Shown here: positions 1 through 47,647 of the stretch, piece after piece | How positions within the stretch are numbered: the first letter of the stretch is position 1 | How the letters are laid out: each line of letters begins with the position of its first letter | Translations under genes and position numbers: made by a program | The notes under the pieces: model-generated | What the model was told of the DNA's origin: nothing | Databases searched by the model: none | What the model saw: the letters and a program-made list of their open reading frames with translations, nothing else | Sequence record: MF158039 | Direction: 5' to 3' (one strand) | Source of the DNA: Shigella phage Sf12 | Length of the DNA stretch: 47,647 bases

Positions 1-257
1 ATATATATATATTAAGGACTTATGGCGTAAGTCATGGCGTAGCTTGGCGTACCTCGCGTAACGATGGCGGCTCAGCTTACATCGCGCTACTGAGGTTACG
101 TGTATATGAAGGAAAAGGCCATGGCGAGCGATAAAACCAACCAACTAGTTGATACACTCCCCTTCATTCCATCCATCCATCAACCATTGCTCAATTCGCA
201 ACAGTCCAGAAAATCATTGCAATCGATGCAATATTGCTATACATGCAATAGTACTGT
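1..257. repeat. Terminal direct repeat, left copy (identical to 47391..47647); true length may be longer because the window ends inside it
   Basis: Exact identity of window start and end read directly; repeat period 47,390 bp. Confidence 0.9.
24..70. repeat. Five GGCGTA-type direct repeats phased at about 10 bp inside the terminal repeat
   Basis: GGCGTA at 24, 36, 46, (G)CGTA at 56, GGCGG at 66; one helical turn apart. Confidence 0.7.
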
Positions 258-280
258 GAATCATTGCAATATCTGCAACA
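185..280. repeat. Cluster of ATTGCAAT / TGCAAT palindromic short repeats inside the terminal repeat
   Basis: cattgcaat at 215 and 262, tgcaat at 227 and 244, tgcaac at 274, attgctcaat at 186. Confidence 0.6.
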
Positions 281-296
281 ATCCATAAATCGAACG

Positions 297-342
297 AATA
301 GCACTTTTTGCTAATGACCATTCAGCCCTGATTGGCTATAGT
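297..342 (+). promoter_or_regulatory. Junction cassette copy: palindrome TAGCA-N5-TGCTA (299..313) then -10-like TATAGT (337..342) and conserved leader
   Basis: aatagcactttttgctaatg; 23-bp gap to TATAGT; leader acaacgaggagagaaagaATG. Confidence 0.55.
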
Positions 343-370
343 TATCACATCAACAACGAGGAGAGAAAGA

Positions 371-589
371 ATGAAAGCGATTATTATCAACAACGAAATC
401 AAGTTTGACGAAGATGCATTGACTCTGGCTGATATGGGTTATGAGATTGGTGAAGAGGTTGAAGTGTTTGAACTTGAAGGTGAGTACTTCATTGATGCAA
501 AGTGCGATGTTGTCATTGATGGCATTGTGGCTATTTACGAAAGTGAGGAGTTCACCGTTACCACAGAAGAAATCGAGGTATTAGCATGA
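371..589 (+). CDS. Hypothetical small acidic protein (ORF 332..589, start refined to ATG 371 behind conserved leader)
   Basis: ORF track; SD gaggag 8 bp upstream of ATG 371. Confidence 0.5.
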   Translation: MKAIIINNEIKFDEDALTLADMGYEIGEEVEVFELEGEYFIDAKCDVVIDGIVAIYESEEFTVTTEEIEVLA

Positions 590-825
590 AGATTCGCTGC
601 GCCAACTGTATAACTAGCACCGACAAGAAGATTGCAACGCCATTCGTAAAAGGCTCTTTATACGACGCTGAGCCGCTAATCATTAACGGCAAGACAATCC
701 CGAACGAGTGGGTGATTAATGGCGCTGAGCGTCCGCACAAGCACGATTCGGGGTGGATTGCTATCGCTGGTTGGAATGTTGGAATGTTTATACCTGGAGT
801 AGCAACTTTTGATGAGGTGAAGTAA
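586..825 (+). CDS. Hypothetical protein, 79 aa (Cys-rich N-terminus CANC)
   Basis: ORF track; ATGA start/stop overlap with previous gene. Confidence 0.45.
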   Translation: MKIRCANCITSTDKKIATPFVKGSLYDAEPLIINGKTIPNEWVINGAERPHKHDSGWIAIAGWNVGMFIPGVATFDEVK

Positions 826-978
826 ATGCTTAAACCATCTGACTTGAACTATTACGATCTAGAAACCATAGCCAAGTACAGCGGAAAGGGCTGGCCTGTT
901 GGTGACTACTTTAAGGAAGACCTTATAGAGAGCTTCGATATTGTTCAGAAAGCAATTGCAAAAGCGGCGAAGAAATAG
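826..978 (+). CDS. Hypothetical small protein, about 50 aa
   Basis: TAAATG coupling to previous gene; stop TAG is embedded in the next junction palindrome. Confidence 0.3.
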   Translation: MLKPSDLNYYDLETIAKYSGKGWPVGDYFKEDLIESFDIVQKAIAKAAKK

Positions 979-1018
979 CATTAATTGTTAAAGCCCTTCG
1001 GGGCTTATCATGTATATT
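975..1018 (+). promoter_or_regulatory. Junction cassette copy: palindrome TAGCA-N5-TGTTA (976..990), GC hairpin aagcccttcggggctt (991..1006) in spacer, -10-like TATATT (1013..1018)
   Basis: Read directly; leader aaacgagaggatttaaccATG. Confidence 0.5.
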
Positions 1019-1047
1019 CAATTAAAAGCAAACGAGAGGATTTAACC

Positions 1048-1401
1048 ATGGCTACTACACTGACTAAGAATTGGGTTAACGCTGAAAACAAACTATTTAA
1101 AGCTCGCGTTAAAGATGAGGTTGAGCAAATTAAGGTCGATGGCAAGTGGGTTAATCTCGAAATTAACGGTCATTACATTAAGACAAAGACACTACTTTGC
1201 ACCAAGGTTGACCACAGCAATCCACTCAAGAAATCATTTACTGAAGGAAAGCGTTATCAGATTTCTATGCATGCTGGATTAGGTCGTAATGCTGGCTACA
1301 TTTATGACAATGAAGGTGATGGCTGGCAACTTACTCGCGATGATGAGGTTGGCTATGATGTTGGTTATGGCATGTATAAATTTGAAGCTCAGTATAAGTA
1401 A
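1048..1401 (+). CDS. Hypothetical protein, about 117 aa (ORF 985..1401, start refined)
   Basis: ORF track; SD gagagga before ATG 1048. Confidence 0.5.
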   Translation: MATTLTKNWVNAENKLFKARVKDEVEQIKVDGKWVNLEINGHYIKTKTLLCTKVDHSNPLKKSFTEGKRYQISMHAGLGRNAGYIYDNEGDGWQLTRDDEVGYDVGYGMYKFEAQYK

Positions 1402-1446
1402 ATAGCACTTTTTGTTAATGACACTACCCGCTTCGGCGGGTATATT
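1400..1446 (+). promoter_or_regulatory. Junction cassette copy: palindrome TAGCA-N5-TGTTA (1403..1417), -35-like ATGACA, hairpin cccgcttcggcggg (1427..1440), -10 TATATT (1441..1446)
   Basis: ATGACA-17 bp-TATATT fits sigma70 spacing; leader ccatcgataacaacgagagagaataagATG. Confidence 0.6.
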
Positions 1447-1478
1447 TATAGCCATCGATAACAACGAGAGAGAATAAG

Positions 1479-3062
1479 ATGTTTGATTTTAACGAAGATA
1501 AGTTATCAGTAGAACAGGTAATGTCTGTAGCTGCAGCTGAGAATCTGCCACCTTTACGAGTTGCTATTAATGCAAATGGCTATCGCCAGAGCGCTTCATT
1601 CTGGAAAGCTCCTGTTGAGATTGATTCAACTGGTGATAAATATCCGGTCATTTCACTTGGAAATGATTGTGATGTCGTTGGTAAGTTATCAAGCAATATC
1701 GCACGCTCAGTTCAGTTCCCTGAGTCATCTGCTTATATGCATTTTCTTGGCTGCATATCAGCAGCAATGCTTGGTCGCTTCACTGTTGAATACCATGGAA
1801 CTCAGCAGCCTACATCCCTGTACGTCGTGACCAGTCAGCCACCATCAACTGGTAAATCTGCTATTAACTCATTATCAATCGCGCCAATGATTGCAGAGAC
1901 TGAACGACTGAATGAATTACGCAAGCGCGACCGTAAGAAGATTATGGCCAAATTGTCAGCGCTAGCCAAAGAGATGAAGCAGGAGAAGTCACCATCAGAG
2001 ATGGCTGGATTATTCGAAGAGAAAGAGGAACTGGAGGAGAAGTTAGAAAAGCTGTGTGACATTGTTTTTCCGGTGTCCGATACCACGCCTGAAGGCCTTG
2101 CTCGAATCAACAGTCGACAGGGTAACTTTTCAGTAATCTCCGATGAAGCAACTAGCGTGAACTCACTGTTAGGCATGACATATGGTGACGGCTCAAAGAA
2201 AACTAACAGCGAGCTGGTACTTAAAGCATGGGATGCTGGCAACGTATCTATCGCGCGTGCGAATGCAGAGAACAACATGAGCTTCATTGCCATGGGTTGT
2301 ATCTCGGTAATTGCGCAGGATGAAACAATCGTGGCCATCATGAATGCCGGCGCGCGTGGTATCGGTGTATCCGAACGTTTCTTGCTTGTGCGTGAAAAAT
2401 CATTCCTTGGTGAGCGTGTGTTCGTCGATGATGATGGCGAGTCAACATATGAACCAATTGATGGAGCTCTGAAGGCTGATTACTTCCGTCTGGTACATGA
2501 AATTATGAATGAGCAAGATGTTAAGCTGACTGTCAGCAATTCGGCAATGAAGCATCTCAATCGCGCGCGGCAGGAAATGGAGCCTCACCTTGCAGATGGC
2601 GGCAAATATTCACATACAATGCTGCGCGGCGCTTTGGGTAAAATGGATAAGCAGGTAATTCGACTTGCAGCAGTTCTTCACACTATCCGTAACTGGTTTA
2701 ACCCTAACGGCGGTAGTCCGCAGAAATCCAGAGAGATTGAACTGGAAACGATGCAGGAGGCTTTATTAATGTTTGAAGAGCTTAGTAAGACTTACTTGTC
2801 TTCCGCTAATGCTGCTGGTCACGCAGGTGATAATGCAGAGATGAATAAGCTAATTGATATCCTGATTAAGCAAGGCAAGAACAGCAAAGGAGTTGTAGGG
2901 TTGCGCTCACTTTATGAGGCTGCGCGTAAGGTTCGACCTTTTGAGGCTCAGACTGGCGTAATGGCTAAGATTAAAGACCATTTACTGCCGATGCTTGATG
3001 AGAAAAACTACACCTGCCTGATTGGTGATAAGGTTTACATTAATCCACGACTGCTGGGGTAA
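1479..3062 (+). CDS. P-loop NTPase-containing protein, 527 aa; N- and C-terminal segments are paralogous to 46060..46605
   Basis: Walker A-like QPPSTGKS; N-term MFDFNEDKL..NLPPLRVAINANGY and C-term KGVVGLRS..CLIGDKVYINPRLL shared with short paralog. Confidence 0.6.
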   Translation: MFDFNEDKLSVEQVMSVAAAENLPPLRVAINANGYRQSASFWKAPVEIDSTGDKYPVISLGNDCDVVGKLSSNIARSVQFPESSAYMHFLGCISAAMLGRFTVEYHGTQQPTSLYVVTSQPPSTGKSAINSLSIAPMIAETERLNELRKRDRKKIMAKLSALAKEMKQEKSPSEMAGLFEEKEELEEKLEKLCDIVFPVSDTTPEGLARINSRQGNFSVISDEATSVNSLLGMTYGDGSKKTNSELVLKAWDAGNVSIARANAENNMSFIAMGCISVIAQDETIVAIMNAGARGIGVSERFLLVREKSFLGERVFVDDDGESTYEPIDGALKADYFRLVHEIMNEQDVKLTVSNSAMKHLNRARQEMEPHLADGGKYSHTMLRGALGKMDKQVIRLAAVLHTIRNWFNPNGGSPQKSREIELETMQEALLMFEELSKTYLSSANAAGHAGDNAEMNKLIDILIKQGKNSKGVVGLRSLYEAARKVRPFEAQTGVMAKIKDHLLPMLDEKNYTCLIGDKVYINPRLLG

Positions 3063-36237: not shown

Positions 36238-37530
36238 TTAAACGCGAGAAACTGAAAGGATTTCCACTTGGGCGCCAGTTTGTAAGTATAGCTGGCCAGC
36301 AACGTCATTCTCATCAATAGCATTTACTACGCCAGAGAAGATTCTGACACCAAAACCTTTAGTCAGCCTTGCCACTACGTTAAATCCACGAGGCTTAACT
36401 GGAACCATTAGTGATTTCTGACCTGTAGCCGCCAGAAAAACCTCGCGAGCCATAGCCATACCCCTGAACTCATGACCCAGAGCGCCAGGGTGAACCCTAT
36501 CAGTTCCGGTGTATATTTCAGAGTTTGCTGCCGTTACATAGTTGCTAATGTTGATTACTGGTATCCCGTTATCAGCACAGAAGCCATCAACCAACTCAAC
36601 AACCCTCTGAGTTGTGGCATTCAATCCAATTGGTGTTGCGCAGCTAATCTGGATGATTGGTACATCACTGTAAGTCTTCCTGGTCTCCTCCAGGCACTCC
36701 GACATAGACCTAAGCAGCCACTCAGCCTTGCCAGGGTCATTTATTGAAACTGAGTCATTATAACCAAGCGCCCACGAGATAACGTCAGGTTTTCTATTTA
36801 ACGCTGCGAGCCTTGTCTTTACCCTGTTAATCGGGAACCTGCCCTCCTCTTTTGAAGTCCAGGCCGATCCACCAATCCCTTCGCAGATACCATCGAATCC
36901 AAGCGCTCGACTAAAAGTATAGAAGTCGTTTACTGCAGGGGATGAGCCATAAGACTGAGTCCTAAATCCCGCACCAGTACCAGCTGTGTAGCTATCACCC
37001 ATCTGGTAAATGAATGGCCTTTTAATAGTAATATCCCTGCTAATCGTGTCTAACGGACCGAATGCGAAAGAGCCAAATGCAGTGTTAACGCCATAAATCT
37101 CAATATGCCTTAACTTTCCGCTAACGACTCCATCATTGGCCTTCACTTGAATCCAGCTAACACCCTCAGTGGTTGGTGTCGTGATAGCATCTAGGGTTAC
37201 CAATTTACCGTCAACGAATATTGAGTAAGATGAAAGAGAGCCAATGGTCTTAATTTCAAAAAGCCTTGAATCAGTCATAAACTCAAGTTTCATCTGAAGG
37301 CCATTCGAAGGCTTCTGACCAGTGTAAGACCCGCCTGAAACGTTATCAAATCCGTAGGTTGTCCACATGAGATTGGTCTCATTAAGTCTATTGATAACTT
37401 GAGGGGTGGTAATTGATGTTGCGGCCCTGATTTCCTTGATTGCGGAAAACTCAGTCGATAGCTGAACTGGCTGCATAGTAGCCAAGCCGTTTTCAATATT
37501 TCTTTTTACCAAATCAATAAAGCTTGCCAT
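36238..37530 (-). CDS. SGNH/GDSL-family esterase with about 170-aa N-terminal non-catalytic domain
   Basis: Block I GDSYTAG, block III GYND, block V DRVH. Confidence 0.7.
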   Translation of the reverse strand: MASFIDLVKRNIENGLATMQPVQLSTEFSAIKEIRAATSITTPQVINRLNETNLMWTTYGFDNVSGGSYTGQKPSNGLQMKLEFMTDSRLFEIKTIGSLSSYSIFVDGKLVTLDAITTPTTEGVSWIQVKANDGVVSGKLRHIEIYGVNTAFGSFAFGPLDTISRDITIKRPFIYQMGDSYTAGTGAGFRTQSYGSSPAVNDFYTFSRALGFDGICEGIGGSAWTSKEEGRFPINRVKTRLAALNRKPDVISWALGYNDSVSINDPGKAEWLLRSMSECLEETRKTYSDVPIIQISCATPIGLNATTQRVVELVDGFCADNGIPVINISNYVTAANSEIYTGTDRVHPGALGHEFRGMAMAREVFLAATGQKSLMVPVKPRGFNVVARLTKGFGVRIFSGVVNAIDENDVAGQLYLQTGAQVEILSVSRV

Positions 37531-38659: not shown

Positions 38660-39769
38660 TTATTTTTTCAATTTAGCGAGGCGAGCGCGCGGGTTAAGAG
38701 TCTTAACTTCCGGTGCTGCATCAGATTTTTCCGCGCCAGCAACTGCTACACGGGCTTCAGCCATTTTATCAGAAGATTTGGCGATATCAAAGGCCGCATC
38801 GATGTACGCATCAGATTTCTCAGCAACTTCAATACCAGATACTTCTTTAACGTAAGCAACTTTAATTGCTTTAGCGTCCAGGCCATCACATTTAACGCCA
38901 GCTTCTGCAGCAACGGCGACCAGAGCAGCCAGTTCATCAGCATCAGCTTTAGCTTTCGCTACAGCAGCTTCGATTTCAGCAGGAATGCCATCAACTTTAG
39001 CTTTCAGTGCGTCACGCTCAGCTTCAAGGGTGTCAGCTTTGGCCTTGGCCTGTTCTGCATCAGCTTTAACGGCCTCGATATGCTTAGCAACTTCCGGGGC
39101 GATTTCGAACTCCTGCTCGCCATCCAGTTTAATCTTAATCATCAATTTATCCTCTTTATTTGATTGAACGGTATCAGTATACGGGTTTTCCTGTTCCGCG
39201 TCCAGATTCAGTTTAGCCACTTGCGCACGGCCTTTATATACCAGAGCAATGTGGTTCACAACGATGTTTGTTTGCAGAGCATCAAAGCGTACCCAATCAG
39301 CAGGAATCTCATCCTGACTTGAGTATTCTCCATCAAGCTTATACTCACCAGTTTCATTGCTGCCCCAGCCAGGAGACTCAATATCAACAGTGTTGTAGCC
39401 AACCGAAAGCTCACCAGCAACGCCAGACCTAGCCTTCTCGATTGCTTGCTTGTCGTAAACGGTAAGAGGAACGACAACTGTAGAATCCTGGCGCATCGCC
39501 GTACCGGATACTGCGCCAACTACGACATCCTTGGCGTTATCTGAGTTAACTACAACGTGACCTAAGGTAAGCGGCTTGCCCTGATAACTTTGCAGAGAGT
39601 CAGCTTTAAAGACCTCTGATGCTGGTCGGAACTCTCGGCGCTCCGAACCATCTGGCAGATGGTAAGTTTGCACGCCTACACGCGCAACCACTGGAGTGTC
39701 TACGAGAAACCCGTTTTCATCGAAATGGGCCTTTACTTTGGCGCTATCATAACGCATCTTACTCTTCAT
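38660..39769 (-). CDS. Head morphogenesis protein: N-terminal globular domain plus Ala/Lys/Glu-rich coiled-coil scaffold-like C-terminus
   Basis: C-terminal low-complexity AKADAEQAKAKADTLEAERDALKAK; position after portal. Confidence 0.5.
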   Translation of the reverse strand: MKSKMRYDSAKVKAHFDENGFLVDTPVVARVGVQTYHLPDGSERREFRPASEVFKADSLQSYQGKPLTLGHVVVNSDNAKDVVVGAVSGTAMRQDSTVVVPLTVYDKQAIEKARSGVAGELSVGYNTVDIESPGWGSNETGEYKLDGEYSSQDEIPADWVRFDALQTNIVVNHIALVYKGRAQVAKLNLDAEQENPYTDTVQSNKEDKLMIKIKLDGEQEFEIAPEVAKHIEAVKADAEQAKAKADTLEAERDALKAKVDGIPAEIEAAVAKAKADADELAALVAVAAEAGVKCDGLDAKAIKVAYVKEVSGIEVAEKSDAYIDAAFDIAKSSDKMAEARVAVAGAEKSDAAPEVKTLNPRARLAKLKK

Positions 39770-41036
39770 TAATCACCACCTCCTCTACTAATTCTTCCTG
39801 AGCGGGTTGCTCTGGCAAGTTAACATCGCCATCCTGAAGCTTAACTTCCGTCGCAATGGTACGTAGTGTATCACGAGCTTCTTCGGTATTCATCACGCCA
39901 GCAGCAATCAATGCGGCGACTGAGTTAACGTTCTTCTCAAGAATCTCAGACTTATCTTTATCGCTAACCTGAGATAGGGGGTTAAATTCCACTGACCACT
40001 CTTGCTTAGTTACGATGAACGGTAACAGAAACTCAAGAAGAGGCAGCAATTCAGCCTTTCGCTTGCGGTCAACGTACCCGTAAAACGTCTCTAAAGCAGT
40101 ATTCTGGCTTGCTGATACGCCGCCAACGTTCTTGCCTTTAAGGATAATCTCGTGAATACCGCTCAGAGCAACGATTCGGTCAAACTTCTGACTCAAAAAC
40201 GTATCAATACCGCCAATATCCGAGTTAAGTACGTTATATTCCTCGCTCTCTGCGTCAATGCCGATTGCCTGGCCAACTCCACTGTTATTATCAACCTGTG
40301 CCAGGCGCAATCGAGCCGCGCCAAATCCATCTGAATCATCGCACAGGTCAGCTAAACCCTTGGCTTTCCAAACCGCCTGCTGTTTACGACGCAGTAACTG
40401 AGTAGCCAGTCGCTCACAGTTCTGATAGTCGTCAATAGCGTCGATTAAGTCACCAGTTAGTACGCTTGCGCCCCAGCCATCGTTGTTGCGACGTAAATTG
40501 TTAGGCACTCGCTCGCCATCAATGATATGGCAGCGTGTATAATGCACATCGTAGAACGTTGCCGCACCATTTGGCGTAATGCGGTAAGTTAATGGCTTAC
40601 CAAATCTAGCGTTACGTGGATTCTCCTCGCGAGTCTGGACCTTAACTTGCTGCCGGTCGTATACGCGAACAGTTTCGAGCTCCGCGCCTTCACGAATCGG
40701 GCTGGTTAGTGCTCTGCCATCCTTAACGATTGCCACTACAGCGGCGCCACCGTATAACCTCGCCCACGCCAGAGCGTCGATTACACTATCTGAAAGGTCT
40801 AAATCATCCCAGCGCGACCAGAAAGCGCCCTCATCATCAATGCCTTCAATGTTGAAGCCTGCGCCAAGCGCTACCTCTGGCACGATATCAATGATTCGGC
40901 GAACCAACGCGCTGCTGACGTAAAGCTGCTCAAGCTGCGCTGGCGCTGTTAAACCAAGGCTGCCAAACTTTCCGTAAATCTCGCTACCATCACTCCCGTT
41001 AAGAAAGATGTTTGCGTAGCTGTCTGCTTTTACCAT
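39759..41036 (-). CDS. Portal protein (putative)
   Basis: 425 aa directly downstream of the large terminase; position-based. Confidence 0.5.
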   Translation of the reverse strand: MVKADSYANIFLNGSDGSEIYGKFGSLGLTAPAQLEQLYVSSALVRRIIDIVPEVALGAGFNIEGIDDEGAFWSRWDDLDLSDSVIDALAWARLYGGAAVVAIVKDGRALTSPIREGAELETVRVYDRQQVKVQTREENPRNARFGKPLTYRITPNGAATFYDVHYTRCHIIDGERVPNNLRRNNDGWGASVLTGDLIDAIDDYQNCERLATQLLRRKQQAVWKAKGLADLCDDSDGFGAARLRLAQVDNNSGVGQAIGIDAESEEYNVLNSDIGGIDTFLSQKFDRIVALSGIHEIILKGKNVGGVSASQNTALETFYGYVDRKRKAELLPLLEFLLPFIVTKQEWSVEFNPLSQVSDKDKSEILEKNVNSVAALIAAGVMNTEEARDTLRTIATEVKLQDGDVNLPEQPAQEELVEEVVINEE

Positions 41037-41049
41037 GTAATTTCTCCAA

Positions 41050-41072
41050 TAAAAAAGCCCCTGAGTAAGGGG
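41050..41072 (-). terminator. Hairpin plus T-run between large terminase and portal
   Basis: gcccc-ttactcag-gggc then ttttttatt on minus strand. Confidence 0.5.
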
Positions 41073-41085
41073 CAGTTTATCATGA

Positions 41086-42654
41086 TTACTTGACTCCAGC
41101 TAGTCGCATTAAGCGGGCTCTTGGGTCGTCACTCAAGTTCAATTCACAGTTGATTGCCATCGTTGTTGTATCCACAATGTCATCATGAGGGTGTGAATCG
41201 TCCGCAGTGAACGCTGAGAACTCAGTTAACAGCGATGTAAGCCACGGTGCAGAGTCTGGCAGAACTACGTTACCAGCCTTAATCTGTGGCAATGCGCTCA
41301 TCACTCTGGTTAGTTTATCCGTATCTGGAACAAATGGTTCGATAGGTGTTCTCATGGTTCGACCTGCTGACTGGATAAGGCCGATACCAGATGCCTTTTT
41401 CTCGATAATAACCTTGCGTAAGATACCATCCGTTTTACTGGTTGCCCTATGCTTGCTCTCAAAATCCAGCAGAGTTTGCTCAAGCTCTGGAGCCTCCCAT
41501 TTCCCCCTCACCATATCCAGAAGGTAGAGCTTGTTATCCTTACGCCCCCAGAGCTGGAATACTGAGTAGTCGCTATAACTCTTCGTAGTCATGGCAGTAT
41601 CAGCCGTAATGAAGCGGTAGTCATACTTGACTGGCGGCCTGTTGTTCTCATCAAGCCTTACGAACCAATCTACGTTAATCAGGTTTCCACCCAGAGCTAC
41701 TGGCTCCTGCTGGTACTGGCTTAGGAATGTATACGGGTCTGAGTCCCACATCGCCATCAGGTCGTGCACAGATTCCTTTTGTGGAAAGTAGCTATAGTAT
41801 TTCACGCCGTCACGCTCAACTGATTCGGATGACAGGACATCCTTCTCGAACTGCTCACGAATCCAGTCAGGAAGCTCATTCGCATAGTCTTCAGTAACCA
41901 GCGCTGGTATCTTTACCACATCAAAGTCGATACCCATACCGCCAGAAGTCATGAACCACGTTGAATCCTGCGTATGTAGCCTTTGCTGGATTGATATAAT
42001 TGGCGTTGATTTACCCTTGACGCTACTTGCCCTACGCGAGCGGATGGTGTTTTTTAGCAACATGTGAACAGACTCGCGCTTCACCTTACTAAACATATCA
42101 TCAGCTTTATCGATATCGTCCAGCATCAGGCATCCGCTATAGGTGTCCGTGATATACCCACCACGACTGCCCGTAATCTGAGAGCCAATTGCCTTGGATA
42201 TGGATTCAAACTTAACCTTCCCAGAATCATCTAGCACCTGAATCTCATCATCCTTACAGGTTCCAAACTTGCACGGGAAAAGACTTTGAAACTCAACTGA
42301 CTTGATAAGGTCACGCACTCGCTTTGAGTTACGCTTCACAAGGCTATCAGAGAACGAGAGGTTAAGGTTCCTTACTTTCTTCAGCTTAAGCATCGAATAA
42401 ACCGGAAAGTGGATCGATGTAATCTCGGTTTTTCCGGCCCCCGGCGAAATATTTATAATCGTATCCTTCCTCTCGCCAGAAACTATCTCATCAATGATTC
42501 TGCATAGGTATTTATGGTGCCAGTTAGGAATGTATCGCTCTGATTGAGATAGCTGGAACCATACACGAAGGAATGCCTCGAAACTGTGAGTGGATAGTGC
42601 CTTAACTGCCAGCTTTTCAGCTGGCGTCATCTCTTCCCAAACTAATGTCTTCAT
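41086..42654 (-). CDS. Terminase large subunit
   Basis: Walker A-like SPGAGKT near N-terminus; acidic nuclease-like C-terminal half; overlaps TerS by 4 bp. Confidence 0.8.
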   Translation of the reverse strand: MKTLVWEEMTPAEKLAVKALSTHSFEAFLRVWFQLSQSERYIPNWHHKYLCRIIDEIVSGERKDTIINISPGAGKTEITSIHFPVYSMLKLKKVRNLNLSFSDSLVKRNSKRVRDLIKSVEFQSLFPCKFGTCKDDEIQVLDDSGKVKFESISKAIGSQITGSRGGYITDTYSGCLMLDDIDKADDMFSKVKRESVHMLLKNTIRSRRASSVKGKSTPIISIQQRLHTQDSTWFMTSGGMGIDFDVVKIPALVTEDYANELPDWIREQFEKDVLSSESVERDGVKYYSYFPQKESVHDLMAMWDSDPYTFLSQYQQEPVALGGNLINVDWFVRLDENNRPPVKYDYRFITADTAMTTKSYSDYSVFQLWGRKDNKLYLLDMVRGKWEAPELEQTLLDFESKHRATSKTDGILRKVIIEKKASGIGLIQSAGRTMRTPIEPFVPDTDKLTRVMSALPQIKAGNVVLPDSAPWLTSLLTEFSAFTADDSHPHDDIVDTTTMAINCELNLSDDPRARLMRLAGVK

Positions 42655-43166
42655 AGTTTATCCATTACCGAGGCCAGAGCTGCCTTCATTGCTTCCTCAT
42701 CGTTTACTACTGCATTAGAAGCGTTGTTGATGTTAACCTCTTGCGGCTTGTCGATGCCAAGGTCTTTGCCAATCAGTCCAGGGTTGACGATATTGTTAAC
42801 GCCAAGCTGATACTTCTGCTCAAAGATGACTGAATCCACGAACTCCATAACCTCATCGAACCCAGGTGATGAACGCCATTTGGCGATTGCATTGGGGCCT
42901 ACGCCGCAGAACAACTGGAATCCAGTTATCGTAAATACTCGCGGCTTGTGCACAAGGTTCTCAGTGACTACGCCCCGAAAGCTAGCGGTTTCAATTGCTT
43001 TAATTACTTGCTCTTCAGCCCAGCTGAAATACCTGACGGCCATATCGAAGACCTGTTCTGGCGTATATCTATGGTTAATCTTCAGGTTGGCAATGTCGCC
43101 ATACTTCTTATTGTAAAGTTCTTTGAAGTTTCCAATCTTCTGGTGAATCTTTTTCTCTTCTGACAT
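42651..43166 (-). CDS. Terminase small subunit (putative)
   Basis: 171 aa immediately upstream of and overlapping the large subunit. Confidence 0.5.
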   Translation of the reverse strand: MSEEKKIHQKIGNFKELYNKKYGDIANLKINHRYTPEQVFDMAVRYFSWAEEQVIKAIETASFRGVVTENLVHKPRVFTITGFQLFCGVGPNAIAKWRSSPGFDEVMEFVDSVIFEQKYQLGVNNIVNPGLIGKDLGIDKPQEVNINNASNAVVNDEEAMKAALASVMDKL

Positions 43167-43213
43167 GTGATATTCCTCCTGTTTTAAAAGTCATTGTATC
43201 ATGAGTACGCACG

Positions 43214-43238
43214 AAAAAAAGCCCTCACGAGGAGGGCC
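43214..43238 (-). terminator. Rho-independent terminator
   Basis: ggccctcctcgtgagggc then ttttttt on minus strand. Confidence 0.6.
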
Positions 43239-43265
43239 AAGTACTACATTGCGAGATTACCAATC

Positions 43266-43451
43266 TCAAACGAGGGATATTTTATCAACGCTGACTTTGT
43301 GAACTGTCAGGTCAATCTTAAATGCTGCCTTTGCGGCTGCAACTGCTTCTTCAGGGCTACTGGCAAGGAACCTACCTTCGTATGATTGCTGGCAAGATTT
43401 GCATTGTCGACCCATTAGGCGGGAAGTTAAACGTACTTCGTAGTTATTCAC
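43266..43451 (-). CDS. Hypothetical Cys-containing small protein, 61 aa
   Basis: ORF track. Confidence 0.4.
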   Translation of the reverse strand: MNNYEVRLTSRLMGRQCKSCQQSYEGRFLASSPEEAVAAAKAAFKIDLTVHKVSVDKISLV

Positions 43452-43467
43452 CAGGATGCTCCATGAT

Positions 43468-43543
43468 TGGTGTTCCGCGCTGGACTCGAACCAGCAACTG
43501 AGACTTAGGAGGTCTCTGCGTTATCCTGTTACGCCAGCAGAAC
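43468..43543 (-). tRNA. tRNA-Arg (anticodon CCU, decodes AGG)
   Basis: Hand-folded cloverleaf: acceptor GTTCTGC/GCGGAAC, D stem GCGT/ACGC with GG in loop, anticodon stem GAGAC/GTCTC loop CTCCTAA, T arm GCTGG-TTCGAGT-CCAGC, encoded CCA. Confidence 0.85.
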
Positions 43544-43795
43544 TAGAATAGGTGCCGGTTACGGAATCCGGCGAGCTTTCACAATGCTCCGCGTTTGCGA
43601 CTTATACTTTGCTTTTGGCGATGCGCTATTGCCTCGTATCTTTACCCAGCCCGGCTATCGGCTTGCATCTCCGCGATGCGCGTTACGGTCATTGCCGCCT
43701 ACGTGGTTAATACTAACCACATTTAACATTTGAGTCAAGCCATGACGACGAAATAAATCCATGTCAGTATGCCCGCCAGGAACCAGATTGATAAC

Positions 43796-44035
43796 TCAGT
43801 CATAAAGTGACTCTCCAGTTTCGGTTTTACCACATCTTCCCGCCAGGTAACCTGCAACCCAAACGAAACGCATCTTCTCGATGATTGCGCTGATCGGGCT
43901 ATGGAACTCACAGATAACTGCCTTCATGATGTCATTATCCTGCTTCTGCTTTGCTGTAAGTTTATCAACCGCCTCGTTTAGCTTCTTGGCCTGGGCGCGT
44001 ACTGCGTTGAATTGTGATTGGGTAAGTCCGAACAT
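43796..44035 (-). CDS. Hypothetical protein, 79 aa
   Basis: ORF track. Confidence 0.4.
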   Translation of the reverse strand: MFGLTQSQFNAVRAQAKKLNEAVDKLTAKQKQDNDIMKAVICEFHSPISAIIEKMRFVWVAGYLAGRCGKTETGESLYD

Positions 44036-44303
44036 TTTAAATTGCCTTATCGACTAAAGTAATACTGCACAGTCCCGCCAAGGACGGCCTGCTGAGCGTA
44101 CGCTGATTCAGAACTGTCGTGGACTCTTCTGTGCATAACGCTGTTAAACTTTCCAGTGTAGTATGTGTGAATCCAGATCATCTCTTGCTCCACATGTGAA
44201 TTGCTAGCTTACCGTCTCCAGCCTCAGAATCGTTTGCTGCCCATAAGTTGCCAGTGAATACGTAAATCTTCATTTCTTCTCCTCGTTTCGTCTTGATGTG
44301 GTA

Positions 44304-44350
44304 ATCATATCAACTACCCATTCTGGCGTATTAGCAATTAGTGCTATTTG
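44304..44350 (-). promoter_or_regulatory. Junction cassette copy: palindrome (44332..44346), -10-like TATGAT (complement of 44304..44309); no long ORF downstream
   Basis: attagcaattagtgctatttg; leader catcaagacgaaacgaggagaagaaATG precedes only a 22-codon ORF. Confidence 0.5.
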
Positions 44351-44820
44351 CCGTGATTATCATGAAATACGTATTTTAAGTTCGCTTCCTGCCTTGCCTT
44401 AATTGCCTCATTCATGTCGGAATAAGTTCCCAGGTGAATATCCTTTCCGGAGACTTTAATCTTTGCGGCCCACTTACCTGAAGCTTTGTGCCAGCCTACT
44501 CCAATGAAACCACTTAAGCTAGATGGTCTTATTGATTGGTTCCTCTGATTTCCTGCGTTTGTAACAAGCCTTAGGTTTTCAATCCTGTTATCTTTCCTAT
44601 TATGGTTTATGTGATCAATCATCATACCTTCGGGCTTTTCCCTACCATGCATGAACCAAACTATATTGTGCACAAGTGCGGTTCCGTCTATGAAATGTCA
44701 CTGCAGATAACCTTTAGAATCAGGACTTCCAGTAACTCGTCCATTTGACAATCTGGTTATCGTTCCATCTTTATTATAGCTAAAGTGGCATTTTATATAC
44801 TCTTTATTTCTCACTACCAT
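44344..44820 (-). pseudogene. HNH homing endonuclease interrupted by an in-frame TGA (complement of 44698..44700)
   Basis: Hand translation MVVRNKEY...SKGYLQ*HFIDGTALVHNIVWFMHG...IDHINHNRKDNRIENLRLV aligns across the stop with intact paralogs. Confidence 0.6.
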
Positions 44821-44953
44821 CTACCTCCCTAGACCCCCACATATTCATCAGCTCAAAGTAAGCCATTGCCTCATCGCCGTCCTTTGCCTCATCCATCATC
44901 TTCTTACACCAGTCAGAAGGATTCATTTCCTTCTTCTTCATAATCAGGTCCAT
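44804..44953 (-). CDS. Hypothetical small acidic protein (ORF 44804..44998, start refined)
   Basis: Conserved leader tatcgaaacgagaggagacaaggcagtgATG. Confidence 0.4.
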   Translation of the reverse strand: MDLIMKKKEMNPSDWCKKMMDEAKDGDEAMAYFELMNMWGSREVDGSEK

Positions 44954-44986
44954 CACTGCCTTGTCTCCTCTCGTTTCGATAAAGTA

Positions 44987-45033
44987 ATAGTATCGCATCC
45001 TTGCGATTGATGTTTAGCAATTCGTGCTATTTA
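44987..45033 (-). promoter_or_regulatory. Junction cassette copy: palindrome (45015..45029), -10-like TACTAT
   Basis: tgtttagcaattcgtgctattta; palindrome encodes C-terminal NSTNC of the upstream gene. Confidence 0.5.
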
Positions 45034-46019: not shown

Positions 46020-46066
46020 ATCATAGCTGACTACCCGATTTATTGTTTAGCAATTCGTGCTATTTA
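46020..46066 (-). promoter_or_regulatory. Junction cassette copy: palindrome (46048..46062), -10-like TATGAT (complement of 46020..46025)
   Basis: ttgtttagcaattcgtgctattta; 22-bp gap. Confidence 0.55.
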
Positions 46067-46605
46067 CCAGTCAGGGGATATTTCTTCTTCCTCTTAAGCC
46101 TCTCGATCTGCTCATCAATAGCCTTGATAGTAATCTCGTCAACAATCTTCTCGCAATCCTCGATGTTGAAGTCATCTTCCAGTGGCTTAACCTTGTAAGT
46201 CCAGTCCTGGTCGCCATCCAGCAGTCTAGGGTTGATGTAAATCTTATCGCCGATTAGACATGTATAACAAAGTTTATCCAGGCTTGGGATGATGACGTCC
46301 TTAATCTCCCGCATCACTCCACTCCGACCTTCGAATGGCTTAACTTTACGTGCCGACTCATATATTGACCTAAGGCCAACGACACCTTTACTGTTCATGC
46401 CCTGTTTAATGAGGATATCTATAGCCTTTAATGTGTCACGGTTAAGCTCAAAATCTTTCACCGCAGAAAGCTCTGGCCAGTAGTCCAGAGACTGCTTATA
46501 TCCGTTAGCATTGATTGCCACTCGCAACGGCGGCAAATTGTCTGCCGACGCTATCAACAACACTTGTTCGCTAGTTAGCTTATCTTCGTTGAAATCAAAC
46601 ATCAT
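46060..46605 (-). CDS. Short paralog (181 aa) of the 527-aa P-loop protein, lacking the central ATPase segment
   Basis: MMFDFNEDKLTSEQV..NLPPLRVAINANGY and KGVVGLRSIYESARKVKPFE..CLIGDKIYINPRLL match 1479..3062 ends. Confidence 0.6.
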   Translation of the reverse strand: MMFDFNEDKLTSEQVLLIASADNLPPLRVAINANGYKQSLDYWPELSAVKDFELNRDTLKAIDILIKQGMNSKGVVGLRSIYESARKVKPFEGRSGVMREIKDVIIPSLDKLCYTCLIGDKIYINPRLLDGDQDWTYKVKPLEDDFNIEDCEKIVDEITIKAIDEQIERLKRKKKYPLTGK

Positions 46606-47087
46606 TTAATATCCTCAATAATTAAACGGTAATCTTTAATCGCTTTCATCGCTGCTGCAAGAGCATCTCCTTCATACTCTGATAAGTCTGGCATAACCTT
46701 TGAGATCTTGGTCTTAAACTCGGCAATCGCCCCATCTTTTACTGCGTCGTTAGTCTTCTTTCTGATTCCAATGTTCACTTCGCCAGGGATTAACTTGATG
46801 ACTAATTTTCTTTCACCAGCTATCTCAGTTAAACCGAATTCAGTGTTACCCTCATCATCATCGTAGAAATGAGTTGCTTTGAGGCCAGCGTCCCTCAGCT
46901 CAGTCATGCGCGCAGTTGTATTGTAAATGTATGAGCTCTTAAGTTTTGACATTGATTCACCATCATCCCCTATAAGGCTCTCAATCTTATTCAATGACAC
47001 GCTGAATGTCTTATCTTCAGACTTTAGTGCTTGCCTTGTCATTTCTCGAATTACCTGGCCAAGCGTCACTTTTTCTTTCATCTTCAT
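46602..47087 (-). CDS. Hypothetical protein, 161 aa; first gene of the leftward right-end operon
   Basis: ORF track; consensus sigma70-like promoter upstream. Confidence 0.5.
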   Translation of the reverse strand: MKMKEKVTLGQVIREMTRQALKSEDKTFSVSLNKIESLIGDDGESMSKLKSSYIYNTTARMTELRDAGLKATHFYDDDEGNTEFGLTEIAGERKLVIKLIPGEVNIGIRKKTNDAVKDGAIAEFKTKISKVMPDLSEYEGDALAAAMKAIKDYRLIIEDIK

Positions 47088-47112: not shown

Positions 47113-47141
47113 ATCATATACCGACTTACGCATGTAGTCAA
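47113..47141 (-). promoter_or_regulatory. Consensus-like sigma70 promoter (TTGACT-17 bp-TATGAT) reading leftward from the right end
   Basis: Minus strand cTTGACTacatgcgtaagtcggtaTATGATttactcaacttaaacgagaggagatATG. Confidence 0.55.
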
Positions 47142-47331
47142 GCGTAATTCTTGGTAAATTTTAGGGGGTCTTACGCCAAATGGCACCTTAGCTCAGTCAT
47201 GGCTTAATGTAGTTCGTGGTAACGCCTGTAACGAAGCAAATGGTCGGTTAGACCCCCGCACTGTCGTAATGTGTCCATAGATAGCAATTATGTATTCTGA
47301 TAGGAAAAAACACACAGATACCCGTGGAACC

Positions 47332-47380
47332 CCAGTTACACTAGTTACATACAATAATATTAATAATAATAATAATAATA
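47332..47380. repeat. AGTTACACTA plus (TAA)n low-complexity element, also present at 18572..18613
   Basis: agttacactagttacatacaataatattaataataataataataata versus agttacactatatacaaacaaatatagtaataataataatta. Confidence 0.6.
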
Positions 47381-47390
47381 GAAAGAAGAT

Positions 47391-47647
47391 ATATATATAT
47401 ATTAAGGACTTATGGCGTAAGTCATGGCGTAGCTTGGCGTACCTCGCGTAACGATGGCGGCTCAGCTTACATCGCGCTACTGAGGTTACGTGTATATGAA
47501 GGAAAAGGCCATGGCGAGCGATAAAACCAACCAACTAGTTGATACACTCCCCTTCATTCCATCCATCCATCAACCATTGCTCAATTCGCAACAGTCCAGA
47601 AAATCATTGCAATCGATGCAATATTGCTATACATGCAATAGTACTGT
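47391..47647. repeat. Terminal direct repeat, right copy (identical to 1..257)
   Basis: Exact identity read directly. Confidence 0.9.

What the first reader, a model, noticed from the sequence alone, without database searches (positions are those of the whole stretch)
1..297. Terminal repeat of at least 257 bp carrying helically phased GGCGTA repeats and ATTGCAAT palindromes
The window ends repeat its start exactly. The repeat begins with an (AT)6 tract and contains five GGCGTA-like repeats at 10-bp phasing (24..70) and a cluster of ATTGCAAT-type palindromes (185..280). Phased short repeats at a genome terminus are the usual signature of terminase small-subunit or replication-initiator binding sites. 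Whether this is a true direct terminal repeat or an assembly wrap-around cannot be decided from the sequence.
Basis: partly seen in the sequence, partly recalled or inferred. Interest (0 to 1): 0.65.

Follow-up and report, generated by a model that had tools for sequence, protein, structure and literature searches.

The report
Assembly overlap covering T1-type packaging-start region
The "terminal repeat" is almost certainly an overlap left by writing a circular assembly of a T1-like phage (Shigella phage Sf12) as a line, but the sequence it duplicates is real: the intergenic region where T1-family phages start DNA packaging, and possibly replication.

Summary
In detail: bases 1-257 equal 47391-47647 exactly, so the unit genome is 47,390 bp. 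The repeat motifs are real and far above chance.

The terminal repeat itself is an artefact. The window is Shigella phage Sf12, a T1-like phage with a P22-gp3-type small terminase. Three other records with neighbouring accession numbers carry the same kind of exact end duplication at arbitrary places: Sd1 316 bp in lysis genes, Sf13 248 bp in tape-measure genes, Sf11 335 bp.

The duplicated sequence occurs once per genome, in a 670-bp divergent intergenic region. This region corresponds to the one that holds T1's annotated pac end. Ends determined from sequencing reads in three relatives (UDF157lw, MSK, SU57) map to window 131-156, all running toward the terminase genes.

This cut zone lies between two repeat sets:
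- Four TTGC-N7-GCAA dyads at 187-278, which are the true form of the "ATTGCAAT palindromes".
- Four to five phased GCGTA units at 24-70. With inverted copies, these flank the most AT-rich 60 bp of the genome.

Best reading: this is a pac region, and the AT tract with its GCGTA units is either its second arm or the replication origin. Which protein binds which repeat is inferred, not shown.

Interest is low to moderate.

The parts
1..257 (.). 5' copy of the exact end duplication of the record. This is a wrap-around overlap, and the sequence is single-copy in the 47,390-bp unit genome.
   Evidence: Prefix equals suffix for exactly 257 bp. Records with neighbouring accession numbers (Sd1, Sf11, Sf13) carry 316, 335 and 248-bp duplications at arbitrary sites.
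47391..47647 (.). 3' copy of the same duplication.
47335..47350 (-). Two inverted GTAAC-type units (GTTACAC, GTTACAT) 9 bp apart, on the far side of the AT tract.
   Evidence: Degenerate-unit scan. The chance of two or more in 25 bp is about 5e-4.
47345..47404 (.). AT tract, (AAT)n-GAAAGAAG-(AT)7. It is the most AT-rich 60 bp of the genome at 8% GC, and its last 14 bases equal window 1-14.
   Evidence: Lowest-GC window scan. An equivalent tract is present in all relatives examined.
24..70 (+). Four GCGTA units at 25, 37, 47 and 56, plus a degenerate fifth at about 66, in direct orientation at 9-12 bp spacing.
   Evidence: Homologous phased TTACGC-type units occur in relatives.
76..101 (-). Two further inverted units (CTTACAT at 76, GTTACGT at 95), lying within a small inverted repeat CTCAG...CTGAG.
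131..157 (-). Zone where the mapped ends of relatives fall: SU57 131, MSK 149, UDF157lw 156, Rao1 157. The DNA runs toward lower coordinates. It contains the 10-bp palindrome CAACTAGTTG (142-151) and an IHF-consensus match (142-154, minus strand).
   Evidence: MAFFT mapping. PhageTerm statements in PMC10838988, PMC8421802 and PMC7718038. Palindrome. The IHF consensus occurs only twice in the genome.
164..185 (.). CATTCCATCCATCCATCAACC, a 4-bp-periodic tract just upstream of the cut zone in the packaging direction.
   Evidence: Equivalent GATG/GAGT/GATT-rich tracts occur in Braunvirinae and TLS.
187..278 (.). Four TTGC-N7-GCAA dyads at 187-201, 217-231, 234-248 and 264-278, with start-to-start spacing of 30, 17 and 30 bp.
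   Evidence: 4 in 92 bp against 0.003 expected. The same number and spacing occur in Opt-79, AugustePiccard, MSK and XT34, and T1 has 3 copies. T1 record position 1 maps to window 232.
285..292 (-). CGATTTAT, which reads AGATTTAT in Braunvirinae. It matches the core of the P22 pac sequence GAAGATTTATCTG.
   Evidence: Read from the sequence. The P22 pac sequence is quoted in PMC11447400. This is a lead only, being an 8-mer.
299..313 (.). TAGCA-N5-TGCTA palindrome abutting the rightward promoter candidate.
   Evidence: Conserved in all subfamilies including TLS, and present twice in T1.
314..342 (+). Sigma-70-like promoter candidate (ATGACC-17-TATAGT) for the helicase operon. The first gene is at 371-589.
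   Evidence: This is a consensus match only.
47113..47141 (-). Sigma-70-like promoter candidate (TTGACT-17-TATGAT, 10 of 12) for the operon leading to the terminase genes. The first gene is at 46602-47087.
   Evidence: This is a consensus match only.
1479..3062 (+). DUF3987 helicase whose C-terminal ~90 aa form a winged-helix-like domain. It is the candidate origin-recognising helicase.
   Evidence: Pfam E=3e-42. The C-terminal domain is shared with gp74. Fold hits are weak.
46060..46605 (-). gp74 'mini-helicase': the N- and C-terminal parts of the helicase without the ATPase core.
   Evidence: BLASTP 62% over 91 aa and 74% over 42 aa. AlphaFold model with pLDDT 78.5.
42651..43166 (-). Small terminase of the P22 gp3 type, lying 4.2 kb downstream of the region in the packaging direction.
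   Evidence: Pfam GP3_package. PDB 3P9A, E=6e-12.
41086..42654 (-). Large terminase.
   Evidence: Pfam Terminase_6C. Annotated as terminase large subunit in relatives.

Best explanation
**The repeat.** The 257-bp terminal repeat is not a feature of the phage chromosome. It is the overlap left when a circular assembly of Shigella phage Sf12 was deposited as a linear record. Such an assembly is expected for a permuted, terminally redundant genome.

**Where the sequence sits.** In the 47,390-bp unit genome the sequence occurs once. It lies in the ~670-bp divergent intergenic region between the helicase operon (rightward) and the operon that runs to the terminase genes (leftward).

**What the region is.** This is the region where T1-family phages start headful packaging. 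A P22-gp3-type small terminase recognises a pac site here. The large terminase then cuts within a loose zone of about window 110-280, most often about 130-160. DNA is packaged leftward through the GCGTA units and the AT tract toward terS.

**The repeats (inferred).** The cut zone is bracketed by two sets of repeats of the protein-binding type.
- The four TTGC-N7-GCAA dyads (187-278), together with the cut zone, form the pac recognition and cleavage module.
- The 8%-GC AT tract is flanked by helically phased GCGTA units in opposed orientations. It is either the second, packaged-side arm of pac or the replication origin. In the origin reading it would be opened by the adjacent DUF3987 helicase, which has a winged-helix-like C-terminal domain.

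**Shown:** the artefact, the homology and position of the region, the mapped ends of relatives, and the non-randomness and conservation of the repeats.
**Inferred:** which protein binds which repeat.
For: **Artefact**
- The window is Sf12. A 100%-identical protein is named Sf12_gp74 and sits on a 47,647-bp contig.
- Sd1, Sf11 and Sf13, whose accession numbers adjoin the one I infer for Sf12, have exact prefix-equals-suffix duplications of 316, 335 and 248 bp. In Sd1 it lies in the endolysin and holin genes, and in Sf13 in the tape-measure genes.
- Records of T1, UDF157lw and SU57 have none.

**Packaging type**
- The small terminase matches P22 gp3 (Pfam; PDB 3P9A, E=6e-12).
- T1-like phages are described as headful, permuted and terminally redundant.

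**Location of pac**
- The T1 record is annotated with repeat_region 1..2800, and its position 1 lies in the same divergent intergenic region.
- The UDF157lw record is the PhageTerm-reorganised sequence, classed as headful with a pac site.
- For MSK, PhageTerm gave a forward terminus at 36,862 with p=1.6e-9.
- The SU57 end was set by PhageTerm plus a step in read coverage.
- On a MAFFT alignment these map to window 232, 156, 149 and 131. All have the same polarity, toward terS.
- TLS's restriction-mapped pac lies in the same intergenic region.

**Repeats**
- Conservation of the dyads with identical 30/17/30 spacing, of the phased TTACGC-type units, and of the AT tract across four subfamilies is.
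- The AT tract is the lowest-GC 60 bp of the genome and is flanked by opposed units.
- An IHF-consensus site, one of only two in the genome, lies in the cut zone.
- The helicase C-terminal domain is duplicated in gp74 just across the region, and it resembles winged-helix domains.
Against: - No reads or virion data for Sf12 itself were available. The artefact verdict rests on the neighbouring records and on family biology.
- Falling on the pac region by chance has a probability of only about 1%. A physical pac end or the (AT)7 tract may have biased where the assembler opened the circle. Sd1, also T1-like, shows no such bias.
- T1's position 1 and TLS's position 1 came from restriction mapping refined by sequence similarity, so they are imprecise. 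Rao1, CEB_EC3a, ZL19 and XT34 may have been rotated by convention.
- P22's pac is a single asymmetric 22-bp site inside terS. It is not a set of repeats 4 kb upstream.
- No protein-DNA contact is shown for any repeat here.
- The winged-helix matches are weak (best E=0.06), and many are protein-binding rather than DNA-binding winged helices.
- The dyads could instead be operators of a transcription regulator.
Confidence: 0.7

Rival explanations
1. A true short direct terminal repeat. In this reading Sf12 virions carry unique ends with a 257-bp repeat, as in T7-type packaging. The (AT)7 tract and the dyad cluster would mark the two cut sites.
For: - The duplication is exact.
- Its right end (257) lies within the span where relatives' ends map and has the right polarity.
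- PhageTerm-type tools write DTR genomes with the repeat at both ends (my recollection of the software).
Against: - Records with neighbouring accession numbers (Sd1, Sf11, Sf13) have 248-335-bp duplications, inside coding genes in Sd1 and Sf13.
- The small terminase is of the P22 gp3 type.
- Relatives are headful, with 1-2.8 kb of variable redundancy.
- Read-mapped ends of relatives fall at 131-156, at neither boundary of the repeat.
- Only one strand shows a terminus in MSK.
Confidence: 0.04
2. The phased GCGTA units are the small-terminase binding arm on the packaged side of pac. The small-terminase ring would wrap DNA through sites on one helical face, the dyads would form the other arm, and cleavage would occur between them. 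The layout resembles SPP1 pacL-pacC-pacR or P1 pac. In this reading no origin is present here.
For: - The units lie 65-130 bp inside the packaged end.
- Their spacing is about one helical turn.
- They are conserved together with a conserved gp3-type small terminase.
- Earlier authors tied T1 pac to the ATATA repeats next to them.
- An IHF-like site lies in the gap, as at lambda cos and P1 pac (the comparison is from my own knowledge).
Against: - P22-type small terminases are not known to use phased short repeats.
- The inverted units on both sides of an 8%-GC tract look more like an origin.
- No binding data exist.
Confidence: 0.3
3. The AT tract plus GCGTA units form the replication origin. 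Short iterons in opposed orientation would flank a DNA-unwinding element. They would be bound by the winged-helix C-terminal domain of the DUF3987 helicase and modulated by its ATPase-less paralogue gp74. Pac would be the neighbouring dyad and cut-zone module only.
For: - This is the lowest-GC 60 bp of the genome.
- Four direct units are flanked by inverted ones on both sides.
- The same layout occurs in all subfamilies.
- The helicase gene lies 1.4 kb away, and its C-terminal domain is duplicated in gp74 just across the region.
- The domain has a winged-helix-like fold.
- From my own knowledge, the anatomy matches P4 and SaPI origins, which have short iterons, an AT-rich core and a helicase with a C-terminal origin-binding domain.
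Against: - No T1-family origin has been mapped, to my knowledge.
- The fold matches are weak and partly to protein-binding winged helices.
- GC skew is confounded by transcription direction.
- The motif barely varies across the family, so no co-variation test is possible.
Confidence: 0.35
4. The dyads, and perhaps the GCGTA units, are operators of a phage transcription regulator. It would control the two divergent early promoters and would be unrelated to packaging or replication.
For: - The dyads have symmetry typical of operators for dimeric regulators.
- They lie 40-130 bp upstream of the rightward promoter candidate.
- A further conserved palindrome, TAGCA-N5-TGCTA, abuts its -35 element.
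- TLS has a different dyad at the same place.
Against: - No helix-turn-helix or other regulator family was found in the ten flanking proteins searched.
- The dyads do not overlap the promoter candidates.
- Mapped ends fall next to or inside the cluster.
Confidence: 0.2

Closest known systems
Wrap-around overlap of a circular assembly, often scored as 'DTR' by completeness tools
   Same: Exact identity of prefix and suffix. The length is about that of a read. The same feature appears in Sd1, Sf11 and Sf13 at arbitrary positions.
   Different: Here the overlap happens to cover the family's packaging-start region, which made it look biological.
Phage T1 pac and limited-permutation headful packaging (T1 record NC_005833, repeat_region 1..2800)
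   Same: It is the same divergent intergenic region with the same order of elements: palindrome, dyads, G/T-rich tract, TTACGC-type units, AT tract. Packaging has the same polarity, toward terS.
   Different: T1 has 3 dyads and 2-3 GGCGTAAT units. Its position 1 maps to window 232 rather than the 131-156 seen with PhageTerm in relatives. The recognition sequence of T1 pac has not been defined at base level in any paper I could read.
P22 pac with the gp3 small terminase
   Same: The small terminase is homologous (PDB 3P9A, E=6e-12). Initiating cuts appear spread over about 100 bp or more rather than at one base. A GATTTAT core lies next to the dyads.
   Different: P22 pac is one asymmetric 22-bp site inside the terS gene. 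Here the site lies 4.2 kb upstream of terS, in an intergenic region full of repeats.
SPP1 pac (pacL-pacC-pacR) and P1 pac (hexamer repeats on both sides of the cut, IHF site)
   Same: A cut zone is bracketed by two sets of short repeats, with helical phasing and an IHF-consensus site in the gap. The descriptions of the comparators come from my own knowledge.
   Different: There is no sequence or protein homology to SPP1 G1P or P1 PacA. No Dam (GATC) sites occur in the repeats. Binding is untested.
P4 and SaPI-type replication origins (short iterons flanking an AT-rich core, helicase with a C-terminal origin-binding domain)
   Same: Units of 6-7 bp spaced about one helical turn apart, in opposed orientation around an 8%-GC tract. 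A P-loop helicase (DUF3987) with a winged-helix-like C-terminal domain is encoded nearby.
   Different: No origin activity has been shown, and the helicase is not demonstrably an initiator. An extra ATPase-less paralogue (gp74) is present.
T7-type short direct terminal repeats (about 150-500 bp)
   Same: A repeat of 257 bp lies at both ends of the record.
   Different: The terminase type, the family biology and the neighbouring records all argue against it.

Membership tests
Assembly wrap-around overlap | Prefix and suffix identical without a single mismatch, ending exactly at the ends of the record | tested here: met
   257 of 257 bases identical.
Assembly wrap-around overlap | Other genomes that appear to come from the same deposit (neighbouring accession numbers) show equivalent overlaps at unrelated positions | tested here: met
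   Sd1 316 bp in the endolysin and holin genes. Sf13 248 bp in the tape-measure genes. Sf11 335 bp.
Assembly wrap-around overlap | Read coverage across the overlap equals the genome average, with reads spanning the junction | not testable with these tools
   No read data are available.
Short direct terminal repeat (T7-type fixed ends) | Both physical ends of virion DNA are unique and carry the repeat | not testable with these tools
   Needs reads or virion DNA.
Short direct terminal repeat (T7-type fixed ends) | A packaging enzyme and family known to make fixed ends | tested here: not met
   The small terminase matches P22 gp3. Relatives are headful and permuted.
Short direct terminal repeat (T7-type fixed ends) | Ends of close relatives coincide with the boundaries of the repeat | tested here: not met
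   Relatives' ends map to 108-278, with PhageTerm ends at 131-156. None falls at 1 or 257, and only one polarity is seen.
T1-family pac (headful initiation) region | Homologous to, and in the same position as, the region holding T1's annotated pac end | tested here: met
   Same divergent intergenic region and same order of elements.
T1-family pac (headful initiation) region | Initiating ends of relatives, determined from reads, map inside it with one polarity | tested here: met
   UDF157lw 156, MSK 149 and SU57 131, all running toward terS.
T1-family pac (headful initiation) region | Headful-type terminase genes in the genome | tested here: met
   Small terminase gp3-like. Large terminase matches Terminase_6C. 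Portal matches Phage_portal_3.
T1-family pac (headful initiation) region | A submolar pac fragment or read-start peak in Sf12 itself, and small-terminase binding to the repeats | not testable with these tools
   Needs an experiment or reads.
Iteron-type replication origin | An AT-rich unwinding element | tested here: met
   47345-47404 is the lowest-GC 60 bp of the genome, at 8% GC.
Iteron-type replication origin | Three or more short repeats in register beside the AT tract | tested here: met
   Four GCGTA units at 9-12 bp spacing, plus inverted units on both sides.
Iteron-type replication origin | A cognate initiator with a DNA-binding domain | tested here: inconclusive
   The helicase C-terminal domain and gp74 resemble winged-helix domains, but the best Foldseek E-value is 0.06 and many hits are protein-binding winged helices.
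Iteron-type replication origin | Replication starts here | not testable with these tools
   GC skew follows transcription direction and is uninformative.

The most novel reading that the evidence does not exclude
The T1-family divergent intergenic region is a fused origin and pac module. In this reading the DUF3987 helicase, through its winged-helix C-terminal domain, and its ATPase-less paralogue gp74 bind the opposed GCGTA units around the AT tract to start replication. The gp3-type small terminase uses the TTGC-N7-GCAA dyads about 100 bp away to start packaging. Replication start and packaging start would then be physically coupled or mutually exclusive on the same 300 bp. This would give the first base-level definition of T1 pac and the first T1-family origin.
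Probability: 0.15. Interest if true: 0.55.

Novelty: new member of a known kind. Interest (0 to 1): 0.22.

Why it matters
**Data quality.** Sf12, Sd1, Sf11 and Sf13 all carry untrimmed wrap-around overlaps. Rules such as "identical ends mean DTR" then score them as terminal repeats. This inflates genome length and can mislabel the packaging type of headful phages.

**Biology.** T1 is a classic generalized transducer whose pac site has been mapped but, as far as I could find, never defined at base level. The comparison made here brings together three things:
- ends taken from sequencing reads in three relatives;
- T1's annotated end;
- a conserved order of elements: palindrome, four dyads, G/T-rich tract, cut zone, phased GCGTA units, AT tract.

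It gives concrete fragments of under 100 bp for small-terminase footprinting, pac-plasmid transduction tests and origin tests. If confirmed, it would help in engineering T1-like phages and in predicting their transduction behaviour.

Tried and rejected
- **Rfam and tRNA scans.** These found only tRNA-Arg at 43468-43543 and no known RNA in the region.
- **Promoters inside the dyad cluster.** None reached the scan threshold. The only candidates flank the core, at 314-342 and 47141-47113.
- **GC skew as an origin marker.** It follows gene orientation and is uninformative.
- **Regulators among flanking proteins.** Pfam and PHROGs searches of ten flanking proteins found no DNA-binding regulator, only DUF3987, DUF7174, DUF7180 and GP3_package.
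- **Lambda pseudo-pac test.** From memory, T1 starts packaging at a site between lambda genes P and Q (Drexler 1984). I looked there for clusters of either motif and found none. The only result is that the two best local matches both involve T1's first dyad: 13/13 in gene P and 14/15 in ninG. This is a weak lead.
- **Fold search of gp74 and the helicase C-terminal domain.** Only weak matches to winged-helix domains were found.
- **Primary literature.** The T1 genome paper, the Rtp paper and the Sf12 paper are not held. Two literature searches for Sf12 were wasted on unrelated 'SF12' papers.
- **Did a physical pac end force the assembler to break here?** Sd1, also T1-like with an adjacent accession number, is broken in its lysis genes, so no systematic effect is shown.
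- **The metagenome relative L008.** Its contig end lies about 310 bp beyond the cut zone, not at it.
Full report
**1. Observation**

Window 1-257 equals 47391-47647 exactly, and the match stops only because the record stops. The unit genome is therefore 47,390 bp.

The start is (AT)6. Read through the junction it is G(AT)7 preceded by (AAT)n.

GGCGTA lies at 24, 36 and 46, CGCGTA at 55, and a degenerate GGCGGC at 66. Spacings are 12, 10, 9 and 11 bp. Four GCGTA in 45 bp is the densest cluster in the genome, with about 0.02 such clusters expected genome-wide.

Exact ATTGCAAT occurs only at 216 and 263. The real unit is the dyad TTGC-N7-GCAA, at 187, 217, 234 and 264. There are six genome-wide against 1.5 expected, and four in 92 bp against 0.003 expected.

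**2. What the genome is**

The window is a T1-like phage of the Drexlerviridae. Its nearest records are Rogunavirinae (Opt-79, Phleasolo, phiEB49, AKS96), at about 87% identity over 65% of the first 24 kb.

It is IMG/VR UViG 2974508497. A 100%-identical protein is named Sf12_gp74 of Shigella phage Sf12 and sits on a 47,647-bp contig.

- Small terminase: 42651-43166, minus strand. It matches Pfam GP3_package and P22 gp3 (PDB 3P9A, E=6e-12).
- Large terminase: 41086-42654, minus strand.
- DUF3987 helicase: 1479-3062, plus strand.

The duplicated sequence lies in a ~670-bp divergent intergenic region. The last minus-strand gene is at 46602-47087 and the first plus-strand gene is at 371-589.

**3. 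The terminal repeat is a wrap-around**

I checked three records whose accession numbers neighbour the one I infer for Sf12. Sf12's own accession is not in the collection.

| Record | Accession | Exact prefix = suffix | Where it falls |
|---|---|---|---|
| Sd1 (also T1-like) | MF158042 | 316 bp | endolysin and holin genes |
| Sf11 | MF158038 | 335 bp | partly intergenic |
| Sf13 | MF158040 | 248 bp | tape-measure and chaperone genes |

Records of T1, UDF157lw and SU57 have no such duplication.

An overlap of 250-335 bp at arbitrary positions in every genome checked indicates an untrimmed circular assembly. It does not indicate virion ends. In addition, the T1 family packages by the headful mechanism from a pac site, with variable redundancy of 1-2.8 kb and limited permutation. 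I put the chance of a true 257-bp DTR at about 4%.

**4. The region under the overlap is the family's packaging-start region**

The T1 record (NC_005833) carries repeat_region 1..2800. Its position 1 lies in the same divergent intergenic region, in mirror orientation: ST1 ends at 48674 and ST77 starts at 539.

Three relatives have ends taken from sequencing reads.
- The UDF157lw record is the PhageTerm-reorganised sequence, classed as headful with a preferred pac site.
- MSK has a PhageTerm forward terminus at 36,862, p=1.6e-9.
- SU57's end was chosen from PhageTerm output plus an abrupt step in coverage. Its authors state that pac lies in this untranslated region in T1 and other T1-like phages.

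On a MAFFT alignment, record starts or termini map to these window coordinates:

| Phage | Window coordinate | Basis |
|---|---|---|
| XT34 | 278 | record start |
| T1 | 232 | annotated record position 1 |
| Rao1 | 157 | record start |
| UDF157lw | 156 | PhageTerm |
| MSK | 149 | PhageTerm |
| SU57 | 131 | PhageTerm plus coverage step |
| CEB_EC3a | 111 | record start |
| ZL19 | 108 | record start |

In every case the DNA runs toward lower window coordinates, that is toward terS. TLS's restriction-mapped pac also lies in this intergenic region.

The 257-bp overlap straddles this zone. Neither of its boundaries coincides with a read-mapped end.

**5. Anatomy, conserved across four subfamilies**

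Reading the window left to right:
- A leftward promoter candidate at 47141-47113.
- Two inverted GTAAC-type units at 47335 and 47344.
- An AT tract at 47345-47404, 8% GC, the lowest 60 bp in the genome.
- Four direct GCGTA units at 25-62, plus a degenerate fifth.
- Two more inverted units at 76 and 95.
- The cut zone at 131-157. It holds the palindrome CAACTAGTTG and one of only two IHF-consensus matches in the genome.
- A CCAT-periodic tract at 164-185.
- Four TTGC-N7-GCAA dyads at 187-278. The same 30/17/30 spacing occurs in Opt-79, AugustePiccard, MSK and XT34.
- CGATTTAT at 285-292, resembling the core of P22 pac.
- The palindrome TAGCA-N5-TGCTA at 299-313, present in every subfamily including TLS.
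- A rightward promoter candidate at 314-342.

TLS keeps this layout but has two AGACCGATTGGTCT palindromes where the others have the TTGC dyads.

**6. Mechanism**

*Shown:* packaging in this family starts in this region and proceeds toward terS, and the repeats are non-random and conserved.

*Inferred:* the gp3-type small terminase recognises repeats here, and the large terminase cuts loosely in the gap. P22 makes similarly imprecise initiating cuts (my own knowledge).

Two readings of the GCGTA units with the AT tract remain open.

(a) They are the packaged-side arm of a two-armed pac, like SPP1 pacL/pacR or P1 pac.

(b) They are the replication origin. Short opposed iterons around the genome's weakest duplex match P4 and SaPI origins (my own knowledge). 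The neighbouring DUF3987 helicase has a C-terminal ~90-aa domain that is duplicated in gp74. That protein is an ATPase-less "mini-helicase" encoded just across the region (62% identity). The AlphaFold model (pLDDT 78.5) finds only weak PDB matches (best E=0.06). Nearly all are winged-helix domains, and many of those bind protein rather than DNA.

I rate (b) about 0.35 and (a) about 0.30. A purely transcriptional role for the dyads rates about 0.2. These are not all mutually exclusive.

**7. Why the overlap landed here**

By chance this has a probability of about 1%. A pile-up of pac ends or the (AT)7 low-complexity run could bias where the assembler opened the circle. Sd1's overlap, in its lysis genes, shows no such bias. 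I leave this as a coincidence that cannot be resolved without reads.

**8. Comparison and novelty**

The repeat is an ordinary assembly overlap. The region is a new member of a known kind, the pac region of a T1-like headful phage.

The element-level architecture was not described in any paper I could read. Those papers mention only "ATATA repeats" and "AGATTT". It is of moderate interest to specialists because T1's pac and origin are undefined at base level. It would become more interesting if the origin-plus-pac reading proved true.

**9. Leads that went nowhere**

- The lambda P-Q interval has no cluster of either motif. Only T1's first dyad gives the two best local matches, one of them 14/15 in ninG.
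- GC skew is confounded by transcription direction.
- No regulator family was found in the flanking proteins.
- The key T1, Rtp and Sf12 papers are not held.

Noticed in passing
window 46060-46605 (-) and 1479-3062 (+): gp74 is an ATPase-less 'mini-helicase'. Its first 42 aa are 74% identical and a central 91 aa are 62% identical to the N- and C-termini of the DUF3987 helicase encoded on the other side of the intergenic region. The shared C-terminal domain models as a winged-helix-like fold. More than 200 homologues exist, almost all unnamed.
   Followed up: partly
window ~98-124: There is a mosaic joint inside the intergenic region. To its left (AT tract, GCGTA units and leftward genes) the closest relatives are Braunvirinae-type phages at 77-80%. 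To its right (dyads, helicase operon) they are Rogunavirinae at about 90%. The joint lies just inside the packaged end.
   Followed up: no
GenBank MF158042 (Sd1), MF158038 (Sf11), MF158040 (Sf13): These records, whose accession numbers neighbour the one I infer for Sf12, carry exact end duplications of 316, 335 and 248 bp. In Sd1 and Sf13 they lie inside genes; Sf13's falls in the tape-measure and chaperone genes. Rules based on identical ends would score them as DTR.
   Followed up: yes
window 47164-47257: Arms of 11 nt (GGGGGTCTTAC / GTTAGACCCCC) lie 72 nt apart, upstream of the leftward promoter candidate. They are partly conserved in Braunvirinae. The RNA fold z-score is only -2.3, and there is no Rfam match.
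   Followed up: partly
L001 (T1) 1-17 compared with L027 (lambda) 39898-39910 and 42840-42854: The two best local matches between the T1 pac region and lambda 39000-45000 both involve T1's first TTGC-N7-GCAA dyad. One is 13/13 in gene P and the other 14/15 in ninG, between P and Q. From memory, T1 is reported to start packaging on lambda DNA in that interval. Statistically this is weak (E 0.07 and 0.27).
   Followed up: partly
L029/L028 (TLS) 49790-49825: TLS has two tandem AGACCGATTGGTCT palindromes at the position where the other subfamilies have TTGC-N7-GCAA dyads. The binding specificity appears to have been swapped within a conserved layout.
   Followed up: no
window 299-313: The palindrome TAGCA-N5-TGCTA abuts the rightward promoter candidate. 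It is conserved in every subfamily examined, including TLS, and is present twice in T1.
   Followed up: partly
window 142-154 (-): TATCAACTAGTTG fits the IHF consensus WATCAANNNNTTR. It is one of only two matches in the genome, and it lies exactly where the PhageTerm ends of relatives map. It overlaps the 10-bp palindrome CAACTAGTTG.
   Followed up: partly
window 43468-43543 (-): A tRNA-Arg (anticodon CCT) lies between the small-ORF block and terS, as in other Rogunavirinae.
   Followed up: no
OQ243221 (UDF157lw): The paper reports a 46,392-bp contig, but the deposited PhageTerm-reorganised record is 46,604 bp. The extra 212 bp are not a terminal duplication and remain unexplained.
   Followed up: no
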